A DNA stretch of 64,000 nucleotides, from NCBI GenBank assembly GCA_964016885.1, contig OZ024753.1:21762001-21826000 (forward strand). The letters run 5' to 3'. The translations under genes and the position numbers were made by a program. This DNA comes from Eledone cirrhosa (Eukaryota). Shown piece after piece: positions 3,360 to 58,999 of the stretch. The notes below the pieces were generated by a model, which saw only the letters and a program-made list of their open reading frames with translations, ran no database searches and was not told the DNA's origin. How positions within the stretch are numbered: position 1 is the stretch's first letter; each line of letters starts with the position of its first letter.

Positions 3360-4336
3360 AAACGGGATAACAAGTTTTCGTTATAGGCAATCCACTTAGA
3401 GGTAGTATAGTACTCTGTGTTGTAGATGGTATTAACGTGTGGCTTAGTTTGACTCAACAAGACGCTTCCATAGTGATGCAGCGAGTTCACGGTGATTTCT
3501 ATGTAGGTTATACTTGGAGTAATAATAATTCAAGAGATAAAAGTAACATGGTTGTCTGTACAATAAGGGTTTTATTAACAGTGCTGACAATTGTTTCTTT
3601 GAGCTGGTAGGTCTAGAGTTCGCTAATCGCTAGATGTTGCGTCAATCGAACTCCAATACTTTGTTTATAACCAGTTAATTCATCAGAGCAAGCGAATGTG
3701 ACGATAATATACAAGGCATGGCTTTTATAGAGGAGTAGTATTAGACCAGAACAGTAATATCAATAACAAAATAACTAGATACTGAATAGTTAAATAAATA
3801 ACATCAATATAAGTGAGAAATAGAATATGATGATAAAATGATAAAACCAGCATGGTAACCTAAGTGATATGATACAGATGTATGAAGTTAACATGTGAAA
3901 ACTACTATAGGTTACTTCAGACGTAGTTTCTGAGGGATTGAGAGATAACTAATAAAATGTACCCAGAGTCAGATTTTGGGAATCTGCCCCTTTAAGTGCA
4001 ATTATGAGTGATCTAGATACAAGTGTGCTGAGGGGCTAAAGACACGCTAGCAATAACCGTAGATTGATTTATGGTCTGACAGATAAGCATTTTCGTTATA
4101 TTAACTCAGTTCGAATGATGGGGGTTTAGTATTCACAACTTCGATGACATATAGTGTATAATCAAGACAATAAATCAAAAATAAAATATGCATGGTAAAT
4201 AGAGAACAGGATGAATAAAATTAGGGATAGGGTACATTAAGATGATTTTAATAGTAATAATAAGAAAAAATTGTCAGCACCGTGAATAAAAACCTTATTG
4301 TACAGACAACCATGTTACTCTTATCTCTTGAATTAT
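3360..4336 (-). mobile_element. Non-coding HHR-bearing element between (TA)n arrays with short inverted segment
   Basis: 3525-3592 is the reverse complement of 4269-4336; HHR at 3582-3690; TA arrays at both sides. Confidence 0.6.
3582..3690 (-). ncRNA. Type I hammerhead ribozyme with extended stem II
   Basis: Minus strand: ugcu CUGAUGA ...cuggu [insert with gaguucg/cgaacuc hairpin] accag... GAAA caauug UC agca; stem I 4 bp, palindromic stem III, GUC site; base of stem II imperfect. Confidence 0.65.
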
Positions 4337-4675
4337 ATATATATATATATATATATATATATATATATATATATATATATATATATATATATATATATAT
4401 ATATAGCGGCGATGAATTAGATTTGCGAGGTTTTTTTATATGAAATCGTGTGTCGAAACAGATATTGTTATATTTGGGGAGGGTCATATTTGCGTAATAT
4501 TGCCAGAATTAATAACAGAACACACTCACTGTTTGGTTGGTTTTCGCTTCTCGCTGTCTTTTATATATATATATATCTGCGATCTAACTTACTCGGTCCT
4601 CAATGTTGCCATTGACTGACCGGCGGTCAAAAATAATACAGATACAATATAGACAAACACATATATATATAGTTT

Positions 4676-4718
4676 ACATAAATCTTTCGTTGCACATCTG
4701 CAACATCGTCAGTGGTGT
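4676..4718 (-). ncRNA. Minimal HHR motif in PLE pseudo-LTR (copy 1)
   Basis: CUGACGA u guugca gaug ugcaac GAAA gauu UA; 6-bp stem II; AGAUUU is self-complementary with GU pairs; stem I only 2-3 bp. Confidence 0.55.
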
Positions 4719-4990
4719 TATATTCATTGTTCCTCCTGTTGTGTTGTATGTCTACGCCATTTTTTTTTTTTTTGTTCAGTCTGTCTATATATTTATTTAT
4801 TTATTTGCTTGTTTGTTTATCTTATTTTATTTTGTCTTCTTTGCGCATGCGTTTGCGTGTGTGTATAGTGTTATGTGTGATGTGTGACTAGTGTGTATAG
4901 TATTGTGTCTGCTGGGTGACTAGTGTGTGTTTATGTGCTTGTGTATGTATTTATTTATCTTATTTTATTTAATTTAATTTACTTATTTAT

Positions 4991-7900
4991 TTATACTTCT
5001 CTTAGGTCAGTGTTGTTTGTTTGGGTGTTGTTGTTGTTCCACTCATTCTTTCTGTTTAGCTTTGGTCTTCTAATTTCTATTTCACTGGCCTCTCTGATTT
5101 GCCTATCTGCTGGGTCATTCCTATGTTTAGATATTATTCTAATTTCTATGTTGTCTATGTTACCGTCATGATGTTGTCTAGCATGTTCGTATAGTACTGA
5201 CCCGTTTTTTCGTCCTTTTAGTTCCCCCCAGTGTTGGTCTATCCTTTCACCTATGCTACGAGCTGTCTCACCTATGTATGTTGTTGTCGTGTTTCTGCAA
5301 GTACCCTCTGTACATCTTATGCTATAGACTACGTTTCTAGTTTTACAGTTTATCCGGGGGTTCACCTTACATATGATACATTTCCTATTGGTACAGTGGG
5401 TTTTCTTAAAAGGGTAGGTTTTGCTGATCAGGGATTTTATGGTGGTTCCTGTCTTTTCTACCACCTTTATTTTTAAGTGGGTCTTTCTCAGGGCCTTTCT
5501 ACACTGGTTAGCTAATTTCCCTCCAGGGGTGGCGTCCACAAACATGACACTCTGATATCTCTGGTTGTCGTACCATGATGTGGCCTTCCCTATCTTATGT
5601 CTAGCCCTATCTAAGCTATTCCATGATTTGCTCCTGTATAGTGGGCAAATTCCTTTCATGTCCAGTTCTATGAGGGTCTTATACTTTTCCATGGCTCCTT
5701 CGTATACTCTGACTCTGTCTCTTTGGTTGTAGCCAGAGAACTGCATGCGGTTGATGAAGTGTTGGATGTGTCCTTCCATTTCTGTTGGGTCGCACATGCT
5801 GGACACATTCTTCATCACTCGTACCAAATCTGCGATCAGAATATTAAACTTAGCACTACTGGACATTGCTGAGTTTTTGAGTATCAGGTATTTGGAGGCC
5901 ATGGGTTTAGCATAGTGTGAGTGGAGAATTTGGGCTCTCTCGTCTATAGTGTTAATCCAGAGTTCTGTGTCTAATACAGGTAGTCTATTGTTATGGTGTT
6001 TGGAAGGGAAGTCTATAGTTACAGTTATACTCTGGTGTATGGAATTAGCTATCTGCTGGATGCTTTCCATCGTGCTACGTTCTAAATCAAACTTGTTAGT
6101 GCTCTCTAGTGGGGGTGTTCTTATAACTATATTGATATCGTCTACATAACGAGAGTACATGATGAGGTCTATGGAGCTTTCATTAAGGAGATCTTTAAGT
6201 CTCCTTTCCCACCATACCATGAAAAGGTTGGCAACATCGCCAGCTATGCTGACGCCGATGGCTGCTCCCTCATTTTGGGTGTAGATTTTCTCATTGAACT
6301 TAAATATGTGGCCCTTTAGGGTAGTTTTGATACTAGCCCCTATTGCATGTGCGACCATTTTTCTTACCTGATCAGTGTTTTGGGGGGTCCGTATAGCTTT
6401 GGTCCACCCAATCCACCTTCCTATGGGAGTCTTTTTAGCCATTGAGGTTATGGTGGGGGGTCTACCTCTTATAGGTCTACTAGGGCAGAAACATCTAAGG
6501 TCATGGCTGTCTAGGTAGTCAGTGTCGTAGGTAAGTCTAAGTAGGAGGCCCAGTTCGTCTGTGTCGACGTCGCAGAACTCCACCTCACTCTCAATGATCA
6601 TCTCCACACATCTTTTCACAGCAAAATCAATGTTAATGGATGGGTACAGTGACACCACATCCATGCTGCCTATTATGCAGTTGGATAGGCTCCTGTTTTT
6701 GTTGCACTCACTGATTCTGCTGAGGAGGTCCTCTGTACTTTCACATACATCTGGGGACATCTTGATTATGGGGCGTATAACCATTGAGAGGAAGTAGGAG
6801 ATCCTGTAGTTGCTAGCTATATTAGCTCCGCATACAGGTCTTGTTGGTGGTCCTGTTGTCGGGTCGTCGACTGTCTTGTGGTCTTTGCGGAGCCCATACA
6901 AGGGTGGTATGCCATTGTTAGACGCCTGGAAGTTGTTGGCAGTGCGTCTGCTTGGCTTTAGGATGTCAGTCCACATCATCATGTGAGCGTTGAGGATTTT
7001 TTCTCTCCCATCGTGTGTTAGTTGTGCAACTTCGCTCGTGTTGGTGATGTGGGGTTGCATTGCCTCGATGTAGTTCGGCATGCTATCTATTGACATCCTA
7101 CCAGACTTATCTGTGGGTAGACACACTACCTCACCATCCCTTGTGCGCTGCTTGAGGCTAACCAAGCCTTCTACAGGTTTTATCCCAAGTTGTTGGGCCT
7201 CTGGTCTGCTCTGTCTCATAGTGTATCTGTCTACTACTTGTCTAATCTTATTTCTAGCTATGGTGAACTGTGCCTCCGTCTCGTCATCTATTTGTTGTGG
7301 TATGCAAACTCTTTTATTAAAGGGTAACCTCGTAGGATAGATATTACCCATCTTATATGTTTTGTCAGCTGGGTTGAAGAATAGTTTCTCTAAGGGGTTG
7401 TCGTTATTTCTATCGTCATAGTTGTGTGTGTTGCTATTATTATTATCATGGTGGTTGTTGTTGTTTCTATCATTAGCATTAATATTATTATTGTTATGAT
7501 TGCTAGATGTATTGTTGTTTACTTCACCGTTATTGTTGTTGTTGTTACTGCTATTTCTACCATAGTGGTTGTTACTATTATTATGTTTCTTGTTTTTGTT
7601 GATGTTGCTACATGTACTATTTCCATTATTACCACTGTGGTTATTGTTGTTGTTGTTGTTCGTATTGTTACCGTTATTACTACTGTGGTCACTGTTGCTG
7701 TGTCTGTGGTTAACGTTTCTATTATTATTATTATTGTGGTTGTTGTTGTTCTGTCTATCGCTAGTATTATTACCATTATCACTATTTCTCACTTTCCTGC
7801 CATTGTTATGGTTATGGCTGTTATTTCTATACCCAGAGTTATTGTTTATATTACTACTACCGTTATTATTGTTGTTGTTGTTTACCTTTGCATTCCAACG

Positions 7901-57813: not shown

Positions 57814-58097
57814 CATACATACATACACACATACATACAAACATAATACACACACGCACAAACGTACATACACACGCACACACACACATACAGACGTACA
57901 CACATACACACACACACACACACACTTTTACTCAAGTCAGAAAGCACCCTCAACATTTTGGAGTTTCTTCTTCTTAGTCTTCTTTGAATTGGGTCCTCCT
58001 ATCTGAAGCAGCCGTCACAAGTTCTTCAGTACTACAGATAGCCATATAAACAAATACTTCCCCCACTCATTTGCGGCCCTCTTCAAAGGAAACATCA

Positions 58098-58305
58098 ATA
58101 ACAAGTGGGGTGCCCCAGGGCACAGTCTTGGGACCACTACTGTCTTTGGTGGCTTTCTCAGAATGCTCTCTGTAGTACATACAACATCCCTCACTAGCTA
58201 TGCTGATGACACAAAGGTAGCAGAGGCAATCAAAAACCCGGCTGACTCTGCCCTTTTACAACAAGATCTGGATGCCATATACAAATGGACTAAGGACAAG
58301 AACAT
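58098..58305 (+). pseudogene. CR1/L2-type RT fragment
   Basis: SGVPQGTVLGPLL...SYADDTK...LQQDLDAIYKW. Confidence 0.8.
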
Positions 58306-58429
58306 TCTATTACCTACTCTACTACCCTAAGTATCGAGTACTCTGGTGCGTTATGGTCCACCTGGTTTCTTACCACACTTTCTTTGTTATATATATGTAA
58401 ACATGTATATATATATATATATATGTAAA

Positions 58430-58999
58430 TATGATAATAATGGAGCTGCGGCGTTGCAAATGGGTTACATATAAAAAAGTGAGTCCTTCATCAGTGACCC
58501 TCCAACCGTCCTAGGCATTTCATCGCTTTAAGGGCCATATACCTCAGGTTGGTGCGAACAACGGCTAAAAAAAGTCGTTGGGACACGTAAATAAAGAGAA
58601 CGTTAGGGTGAACAAACAAAATGGTTTAAGCAACAGAAAGTGAGAAGAAAGAGACAAGTCCCAGATTTCTATGAATATAAACTCGATAAAATCGTGAACT
58701 AGAGAATAAATACCATCAGACCTGGTTGAAATGTGAGCAAGGAAGGAATTTCGCACAGGTCTAACGGGAGGAAGAAGAAGGGGTCTGGACTGCGAATTCG
58801 GTAAACATAAGTTCTGTGAAGACGCAGACGAGAGAGAGTTGCTTAAACCATTTTGTTTGTTCACCCTAACGTTCTCTTTATTTACGTGTCCCAACGACTT
58901 TTTTTAGCCGTTGTTCGCACCAACCTGAGGTATATGGCCCTTAAAGCGATGAAATGCCTAGGACGGTTGGAGGGTCACTGATGAAGGACTCACTTTTTA
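58430..58999. mobile_element. Fold-back element between TA arrays; relative at ~51000-51212
   Basis: Arms 58470-58633 and 58838-58999. Confidence 0.75.

What the first reader, a model, noticed from the sequence alone, without database searches (positions are those of the whole stretch)
3360..58999. Dense community of small hammerhead-ribozyme elements colonising (TA)n arrays
Seen: about 15 intact-looking and about 7 degenerate type I HHR motifs in 64 kb, in roughly a dozen sequence families that share no obvious similarity outside the core. Nearly all sit in 0.4-0.9 kb non-coding islands bounded by (TA)n, and most have a palindromic stem III and fold-back or partial-tandem structure. Established: PLE pseudo-LTRs carry minimal type I HHRs, and metazoan non-LTR retrozymes are HHR-bearing tandem repeats producing small circular RNAs. 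Inference: this is a diverse retrozyme-like system mobilised by TA-targeting PLEs such as the intact one at 4403-12808. I am not aware of a description with this diversity and target preference, but I cannot search the literature.
Basis: partly seen in the sequence, partly recalled or inferred. Interest (0 to 1): 0.88.

Follow-up and report, generated by a model that had tools for sequence, protein, structure and literature searches.

The report
Penelope-type elements, including a rewired hammerhead
This animal genome carries over 100,000 hammerhead-type motifs, predicted to be self-cutting RNAs, in jumping genes that sit in TA repeats; some are ordinary ends of protein-coding Penelope-like elements, some are short non-coding repeats likely moved by such elements, and one group carries a hammerhead-like fold wired in an order we found in no paper, whose cutting is untested.

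Summary
The motifs are real: 11 strict type I hammerheads against 0.04 in shuffles. They are typical of this 3.0-Gb genome, with about 120,000 matches to three tight patterns, and 38 of 42 sampled motifs have (TA)n within 300 nt downstream.

The community is mixed. Seven island families are 3' ends of coding Penelope-like elements (Hydra-clade by motifs), for which hammerheads and (TA)n targets are published. Eight are closed non-coding units of 320-710 bp with Penelope-type insertion marks, in line with published retrozymes. The intact element at 4406-12808 has no canonical hammerhead and shares no DNA with the units, so it is not shown to be the mobiliser.

The new part is units B and B' (58433-58997, 50933-51209). 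They carry a hammerhead-like fold in S-G-C block order, with most of stem II supplied by an upstream strand. I counted at least 10,573 matches, and its helices covary across two families. The same fold can be read at the end of two published octopus Naiad consensi. Cleavage, expression and circles are untested. This scan had already noted the rewired fold and the Naiad link on other DNA of this genome and others.

The parts
4406..12808 (-). PLE1: intact partial-tandem Penelope-like element, two stop-free 1217-codon frames (4991-8644, 9126-12779), CX4CxxC linker and CCHH-type GIY-YIG (Neptune/Nematis-like); no canonical hammerhead
   Evidence: best protein match 68% to a record labelled Octopus vulgaris
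3361..4333 (-). Family E: 3' end of a coding Hydra-type element with a short inverted copy; type I motif 3582-3690 with weak stem II
12935..16755 (+). PLE2: 5'-truncated, frameshifted Hydra-type element (ORF pieces 14291-15444; CxCX5C, CxxC, CxH motifs) with inverted copy 12935-13952 whose tail holds type I motif 12962-13006 (-)
17608..18067 (.). Family N: fold-back 3' end of a coding element; hammerhead core present but stem I does not pair
25379..25544 (-). Family J copy 1: 3' end of a coding element, degenerate type I motif
26723..27159 (+). Non-coding unit C (about 321 bp) with inverted copy; U3-A8 type I motif 26975-27019
27160..27545 (-). Family F: 3' end of a coding Hydra-type element; type I motif 27199-27268
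28218..29241 (-). Family G: 3' end of a coding element with inverted copy; only the GAAA half of a hammerhead seen
30211..31102 (-). Non-coding unit D (about 591 bp) with inverted copy; U3-A8 type I motif 30291-30380 with weak stem II
37705..38791 (-). Family H: fold-back 3' end of a coding Hydra-type element; type I motif 37746-37810
43045..43352 (-). Family J copy 2, degenerate type I motif near 43185-43232
43680..44316 (+). Non-coding unit I (442 bp) with inverted copy; type I motif 44053-44095
46200..46901 (.). Non-coding unit A' (523 bp), head-to-head pair; type I motif 46375-46457 (-) and a mutated copy at 46765-46846 (+)
50933..51209 (+). Non-coding unit B' (533 bp), 5'-truncated; rewired S-G-C hammerhead-like fold 51077-51148, predicted cut after 51096
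51270..52496 (+). Non-coding unit A (553-558 bp): inverted copy plus 1.4 tandem units plus 129-nt tail; type I motifs 51340-51419 (-), 51670-51749 (+), 52222-52301 (+)
52541..53233 (-). Non-coding unit M (707 bp); type I motif 52720-52846 with long stem II
58433..58997 (.). Non-coding unit B (623 bp), head-to-head pair; rewired S-G-C hammerhead-like folds 58487-58557 (-, predicted cut at 58538) and 58915-58985 (+, predicted cut after 58934)

Best explanation
The window holds the 3' ends of coding Penelope-like elements alongside short non-coding repeats that likely borrow a Penelope-type reverse transcriptase and endonuclease to insert into (TA)n, and each active-looking family carries a fold predicted to self-cleave: type I hammerheads in most, and a rewired S-G-C hammerhead, likely of Naiad origin, in units B and B'. 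Shown: the motifs and their excess over chance, closed ORF-less units, fixed TA-abutting 3' ends, tails, 5' truncation, inverted partners, tandems up to about 19 units, the ORF link of seven families, and covarying helices in the B fold. Inferred from published Penelope biology: a tandem or circular transcript is bound by the borrowed protein, which nicks (TA)n and starts reverse transcription at one of two internal sites downstream of the ribozyme (70 and 199 nt in A, 72 and 119 nt in B). It stops at variable points, and a second priming makes the inverted copy. Inferred: the hammerhead cuts read-through RNA to unit length, possibly for circularisation. Untested: cleavage, expression, circles and the identity of the helper.
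For: Excess over shuffles: 11 vs 0.04, and 42 vs 0-3 in 589.8 kb. Genome counts 84,626 vs 120 control, 10,652 vs 0 and 26,927 vs 2,081. Unit periods recur at unrelated loci, with no stop-free stretch over 129 codons in six units tested. 3' ends lie on (TA)5+ in 87 of 97 loci of seven families. ORF-to-terminus alignment holds between independent copies for E, G, N, J, H and K; F rests on one locus. B fold, 31 sequences: stem I 92% paired, linking helix 91%, upstream-strand stem II 93.5%, stem III 91%, and the 10.1-11.1 pair 93.5% with four pair types; 81 cells change on both sides vs 21 shuffled. With a second, older family aligned almost without gaps, 17 of 23 pairs change on both sides. The predicted cut lies 72 nt before the 3' end, where family A has its type I site at 70 nt. 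Two internal start sites explain tails in a purified Penelope-like protein (PMC11167929).
Against: No autonomous partner was found: no DNA similarity between the units and the coding families in hand. Cephalopod Naiads are described as inactive remnants (PMC8557442), yet B copies are 98-99% identical, and no Naiad ORF was seen within 1.5 kb upstream of 25 related loci. In the B fold only one base pair of stem II follows CUGAnGA, which breaks the block rule of Eckert et al., and pseudoknot-free folding does not return the fold. Core invariance in my alignments is partly by selection, and related sequences inflate covariation counts. Ribozyme cutting was dispensable for insertion in vitro, and 8 of 9 Xenopus retrozyme dimers did not cleave. 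Families N, G and PLE1 spread with a broken or absent hammerhead.
Confidence: 0.72

Rival explanations
1. All islands are only 5'-truncated terminal fragments of coding Penelope-like elements; there are no independent non-coding units.
For: True for seven families and for 23 of 42 sampled motifs by best match; described for Penelope-like elements in PMC4209133.
Against: Eight families repeat head-to-tail at fixed periods of 320-710 bp at unrelated loci, with no ORF between copies.
Confidence: 0.05
2. The non-coding units are mobilised by Penelope-type proteins, but the hammerheads are passengers or protein-binding folds that do not cut; the B fold is a recognition structure that only resembles a hammerhead.
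For: Hammerhead mutants did not impair insertion in vitro; low or no cleavage for many such motifs; PLE1 lacks one; stem II of B is split.
Against: The full core (CUGAnGA, GAAA, U-H) sits at the right helix ends in two families whose helix sequences differ. Stem II variants in clan A keep pairing (read by eye).
Confidence: 0.17
3. The intact Neptune/Nematis-like element at 4406-12808 (PLE1) is the helper for these units.
For: It is intact, inserts in (TA)n, and has 94-100% identical protein-coding copies elsewhere, so it was recently active.
Against: No shared DNA with any unit; no canonical hammerhead; the B fold points to Naiads, and canonical type I motifs sit on Hydra-type elements.
Confidence: 0.15
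4. The units are satellite DNA spread by recombination or DNA transposition, with fold-backs as MITE-like terminal repeats.
For: Tandem arrays of 8 to about 19 units exist.
Against: The inversion point varies from copy to copy while the outer 3' ends are fixed, and many copies have no inverted part.
Confidence: 0.03

Closest known systems
Hydra-clade Penelope-like elements (Craig et al. 2021, PMC8557442; passages and supplement parts 1-2 plus passages seen)
   Same: CxCX5C linker, CxxC and CxH motifs, no CCHH in PLE2; canonical type I hammerhead near the 3' end; (TA)n targets; an octopus member, Hydra-1_Obim, is listed.
   Different: Abundance: 84,626 matches to one pattern dominated by these families. 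Clade assigned by motifs and by 30-56% protein identity to PLE2, not by a tree.
Animal non-LTR retrozymes (Cervera & de la Pena 2020, PMC7229834, part 3 of 6 and passages; Li, Clavereau & Pollet 2026, 10.64898/2026.07.22.740005, parts 1-3 of 5)
   Same: Non-coding tandem units with one type I hammerhead each; proposed non-autonomous derivatives of Penelope-like elements.
   Different: Units here are 320-710 bp and mostly dispersed single or partial-tandem insertions with tails, inverted partners and (TA)n targets, which ties them to Penelope-type integration by insertion anatomy. No homology to a coding pLTR was found; circles untested.
Minimal hammerheads of Penelope-like elements (Cervera & de la Pena 2014, PMC4209133, parts 1-2 of 4)
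   Same: Palindromic short stem III, short stem I, long stem II, U3-A8 variant, opposite-strand pairs 100-700 bp apart, many families per genome.
   Different: Counts there are thousands per genome (126,247 in axolotl, PMC7229834); here about 120,000 counted and about 200,000 extrapolated in 3.0 Gb.
Type-SGC non-circularly permuted hammerheads (Eckert et al. 2023, PMC10085705, parts 1 and 3-6 of 8)
   Same: Block order S-G-C, all core bases, a 3-4 nt linker from stem I to stem II, and a helix linking stems I and II.
   Different: The distal stem II strand and its linking strand lie 5' of block S instead of 3' of CUGAnGA, so block C is split. A kink-turn-like GA/AG motif joins the linking helix to stem III. 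It sits in an animal genome, whereas SGC was not found in genomes of known organisms.
Naiad Penelope-like elements (PMC8557442)
   Same: (TA)n targets in cephalopods. Naiad_Ovul is flagged 'HHR_half_core', and the 3' ends of Naiad_Ovul and Naiad_Obim show the B fold and the same 12-nt lead-in as B', read by eye.

Membership tests
Type I hammerhead ribozyme | CUGAnGA (or U3-A8), GAAA and U-H with stems I-III in C-G-S order | tested here: met
   10 motifs on the strict descriptor with family support, 2 more with weak stem II; not met for B/B'
Type I hammerhead ribozyme | Site-specific self-cleavage | not testable with these tools
   needs in vitro transcription
Animal non-LTR retrozyme | Non-coding unit repeated in tandem with one hammerhead per unit | tested here: met
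   A, A', C, D, I, M; ORF check on A, B, C, D, I, M only
Animal non-LTR retrozyme | Type I hammerhead in the unit | tested here: not met
   for B and B' only: no type I motif in either strand of the unit; met for the other six
Animal non-LTR retrozyme | Abundant circular RNA | not testable with these tools
   no RNA holder listed
Non-autonomous Penelope-like element | Fixed 3' ends with optional tail, 5' truncation, inverted 5'-truncated partner, partial tandems | tested here: met
Non-autonomous Penelope-like element | Terminal homology to an autonomous partner | tested here: inconclusive
   none to the coding families in hand; fold and 12-nt match of B' to published Naiad ends by eye; the genome's coding families were only sampled
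Hydra clade | CxCX5C linker, CxxC and CxH, no CCHH, hammerhead, (TA)n target | tested here: met
   PLE2; E, F, G, H, J, N only by similarity to PLE2
Hydra clade | Placement in the RT phylogeny; RWK and DKT motifs | not tested
   window copy is 5'-truncated; no tree built
Type-SGC hammerhead | S-G-C order with covarying stems I and III and a linking helix | tested here: met
Type-SGC hammerhead | Stem II 5' strand directly after CUGAnGA (intact block C) | tested here: not met
   at most 1-2 pairs there in the B families; four pairs come from an upstream strand. Works like SGC; not filed as a member.
Type-SGC hammerhead | Cleavage at the predicted site | not testable with these tools
   needs in vitro transcription
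Naiad-derived element (B, B') | Link to an N-terminal GIY-YIG plus RT ORF in this genome | tested here: inconclusive
   no such ORF within 1.5 kb upstream of 25 loci, searched with non-Naiad queries; longer flanks not examined

The most novel reading that the evidence does not exclude
Units B and B' carry a working hammerhead with a connectivity outside the six published permutations: S-G-C order with block C split and a kink-turn. It is the ribozyme thought to be missing from Naiad retroelements, carried in over 10,000 copies by young non-coding parasites in a genome with one of the highest hammerhead densities reported.
Probability: 0.6. Interest if true: 0.82.

Novelty: new variant of a known kind. 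Interest (0 to 1): 0.68.

Why it matters
It would break the rule that the three hammerhead blocks cannot be interrupted, place a non-circularly permuted ribozyme in an animal genome, and explain the 'half-core' motifs of Naiads. An 80-100 nt transcript tests it in days. Separately, eight young non-coding families carry full Penelope-type insertion marks, which is direct anatomical support for the open claim that animal retrozymes are moved by Penelope-like proteins, and they give minimal templates for the existing in vitro assay. Many fold-back or ribozyme-bearing repeats in cephalopod annotations may be misfiled.

Tried and rejected
Rfam: 0 hits at gathering thresholds; the 150 listed of 315 E-value hits were nearly all microRNA models on hairpins or simple repeats, none a hammerhead. 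Pfam: no family for PLE1 or the PLE2 pieces.

Motif 57467 was rejected as chance. Motifs at 4514 and 8650 in PLE1 were rejected: U3-G8 core, no stem II, and 12 of 12 copies lack a canonical motif. An outer helix joining the 5' and 3' flanks of the B fold is not supported in clan B (60% paired, no pair with a change on both sides), although the older family can form one by eye.

Priming by TA microhomology: 3' ends overlap the target by 0-12 nt; this is inconclusive without a control. Other permutations (CSG, GCS, II, III) gave no convincing family in 1.78 Mb. My general split-fold scanner does not beat shuffles on random loci (4 vs 1-4), so support for the fold rests on covariation and the tight pattern counts.

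Metagenome pattern scan: 1 of 120 matches fits the fold; viral contigs 0 of 12. Sequencing runs: no RNA holder listed; four contig sets of unrecorded kind cover the repeats and say nothing on expression. Lunse et al. 2017 (PMC5785218) is not held; I saw only its title in a reference list. bioRxiv supplements are closed, so family lists in the 2026 preprint's supplements were not seen; the Eckert supplements were not opened.

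
Full report
Setting. The window is G000:C13:21762001-21826000 in a 3.0-Gb genome. The best protein match to the intact element is 68% identical and labelled Octopus vulgaris, so an octopod host is inferred. TA arrays are common everywhere: 118 per 64 kb in sampled loci and 163 in the window.

Observation. Rfam finds no family at gathering thresholds. A strict type I descriptor finds 11 motifs, against mean 0.04 and max 1 in 200 shuffles; it was tuned on this window. 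One motif (57467) is missing in 7 of 7 relatives and is dropped. Two (3582, 30291) fail only on stem II and have family-conserved cores. Seven more are degenerate or partial. The same descriptor on 59 arbitrary 10-kb loci (60 requested, one did not exist) gives 42 hits in 589.8 kb against 0-3 in ten shuffles, which extrapolates to about 200,000 per genome. Three tight patterns count 84,626, 10,652 and 26,927 matches against 120, 0 and 2,081 for reversed controls; the third covers only the core and stem II. Of the 42 sampled motifs, 38 have (TA)6+ within 300 nt downstream (median 81 nt), against 18.9% of control positions.

Coding part. I searched the genome with each island and read the flanks. 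In longer copies, families E, G, H, J, K and N align between independent loci from a Penelope-like ORF to the terminus, with short gaps. F rests on one locus with an ORF between its two inverted ends. PLE2 (14291-15444) has the CxCX5C linker and CxxC and CxH motifs without CCHH, which define the Hydra clade. For that clade, hammerheads and (TA)n targets are published, including an octopus member (PMC8557442). The other six families are placed only by 30-56% protein identity to PLE2. In the genome sample, 23 of 42 motifs best match these coding families (two weakly), 8 match non-coding units and 11 are unassigned. This part is known biology at unusual scale.

Non-coding part. A (553-558 bp), A' (523), B (623-640), B' (533), C (about 321), D (about 591), I (442) and M (707) recur head-to-tail at the same period at unrelated loci. 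A reaches about 19 units and B 7.7. The six units tested have no stop-free stretch above 129 codons. The best 40 copies of each are 92-99% identical, among 1,458-3,216 first-look candidates, which are not copy numbers. Each has one or two fixed 3' ends, and 87 of 97 loci of seven families have one on (TA)5+. The 5' ends vary, and many copies carry an inverted 5'-truncated partner. These are the published marks of Penelope-like insertions, and two internal start sites explain the tail in vitro (PMC11167929, parts 1-2 of 4). Eight of the window's 12 type I motifs lie in these units. No unit shares detectable DNA with the coding families in hand. PLE1 (4406-12808) is intact, Neptune/Nematis-like by motifs, and lacks a canonical hammerhead in 12 of 12 copies; it is neither shown nor excluded as helper.

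The rewired fold. B and B' have no type I motif. Their conserved region reads: an upstream strand; then the cleavage block (stem III strand, U-H, stem I strand); then GAAA with its stem II and III strands; then the other stem I strand and CUGAnGA. This is the S-G-C order of Eckert et al., except that only the 10.1-11.1 pair follows CUGAnGA. Four further stem II pairs, and the helix that links stems I and II, come from the upstream strand.

Covariation. From 99 distinct motif sequences I took 36 clusters at 94% identity and dropped 5 truncated, chimeric or gapped ones. In the 31 rows, pairing is 92% for stem I (5 of 7 pairs change on both sides), 91% for the linking helix (5 of 6), 93.5% for upstream stem II (2 of 4), 91% for stem III (1 of 6) and 93.5% for 10.1-11.1 with four pair types. 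An outer helix is not supported (60%). No shuffle of 500 reached the pairing or the covariation score, while 16 of 500 reached the number of covarying pairs and 385 of 500 the number of pair types. A looser pattern found an older family (44 matches vs 1 control, not all of this family) that aligns almost without gaps. With 8 of its copies and 6 B-clan rows, 17 of 23 pairs change on both sides, including 4 of 5 in stem III; upstream stem II is weaker at 80%. Caveats: rows were selected on the core bases, so their invariance is partly built in; rows are related, so independent events number perhaps five to seven; and I derived the structure from these sequences. A GA/AG motif with a 3-nt bulge between the linking helix and stem III fits a kink-turn (G62 31 of 31, A63 30 of 31); the kink-turn consensus is recalled and the lead came from earlier notes. 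Pattern counts are 6,537 (control 0) and 10,573 (control 7). The predicted cut is 72 nt before the first 3' end, as in family A at 70 nt.

Naiad link. After I had formed this reading, the scan's index showed that earlier agents had noted the same fold in this and other genomes and tied it to Naiads; these notes are leads, not support. I checked by eye the 3' ends of the published Naiad_Obim and Naiad_Ovul consensi. They show the same order, an upstream strand forming a 6-bp stem II, a 6-bp stem I, a 4-bp stem III, the linking helix, the GA/AG motif, and a 12-nt lead-in identical to B'. Naiad_Ovul is flagged 'HHR_half_core'. No Naiad ORF was found in this genome (1.5-kb flanks and non-Naiad queries only), and the paper calls cephalopod Naiads remnants, so the present helper of B is unknown.

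Literature. Minimal hammerheads, U3-A8, opposite-strand pairs and family diversity: PMC4209133. Retrozymes and circles: PMC7229834. Penelope origin of retrozymes: 2026 preprint. The Octopus vulgaris repeat annotation PMC13282606 (passages) does not contain the word ribozyme. Searches for 'hammerhead ribozyme' with 'Octopus', hammerhead with 'non-circular permut' or SGC (25 of 28 listed) and Naiad with hammerhead showed no description of a split-block hammerhead in animals. I judged most of these from listings; the library lacks most subscription papers.

Verdict. The finding is real but mixed. The coding part and the retrozyme concept are known. The insertion anatomy of eight non-coding families and the sheer number of motifs add to them. 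The split S-G-C fold is a new variant of a known ribozyme if it cleaves, which I put at about 0.6. Interest 0.68.

Noticed in passing
window 19497-24877 (+), and a related fragment near 49287-49527: Two-ORF LINE with endonuclease and RT domains (Pfam Exo_endo_phos and RVT_1), broken by stops; Tx1-like is a recalled label.
   Followed up: partly
window 16845-17451, 18657-19262, 45292-45896: Three 95-97% identical 606-bp copies, each flanked by TA arrays, related to the older repeat at 57336-57809; probably a SINE or LINE end, not tested.
   Followed up: no
window 1548-1846, 14047-14231, 33706-33810, 39862-39975, 50689-50814, 55380-55477, 59337-59521, 59879-60069: A short interspersed repeat of about 100-190 bp with many copies, several nested inside the Penelope-like elements.
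   Followed up: no
window 42259-42828 (-): 189-codon retroelement fragment between two TA arrays (weak DUF6451 hit); RTE-like is a recalled label.
   Followed up: partly
window 31218-31469: 250-bp island between TA arrays with 50-bp inverted ends and no hammerhead; probably another Penelope-type terminus.
   Followed up: no
window 17608-18067: Family N is young (98% identical copies) yet its hammerhead stem I does not pair; the strand after the cleavage site can pair instead with a stretch inside loop II.
   Followed up: partly
L337-L345, L075, L069: The commonest U3-A8 hammerhead family among the listed matches, TA-inserted with fold-backs; not among the window's strict hits; coding or non-coding status not resolved.
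   Followed up: partly
L461:276-366: A metagenome locus with the same split S-G-C fold in unrelated sequence (stem I 7 bp, stem III 7 bp, upstream stem II 5 bp); the locus ends 4 nt after the core, so a downstream stem II cannot be excluded.
   Followed up: partly
window 7405-7780 and 11540-11915: Long asparagine-rich insert inside the PLE1 ORF, like the N-rich inserts described for rotifer Penelope elements (PMC3846280 passages).
   Followed up: no
window 62358-63626 (+): 422-codon stop-free frame with no Pfam match; possibly ORF1 of another retroelement.
   Followed up: no
L540 (G000:C1:43917470-43924226): Tandem array of about nine B-clan units with a longer period of about 735 bp.
   Followed up: no
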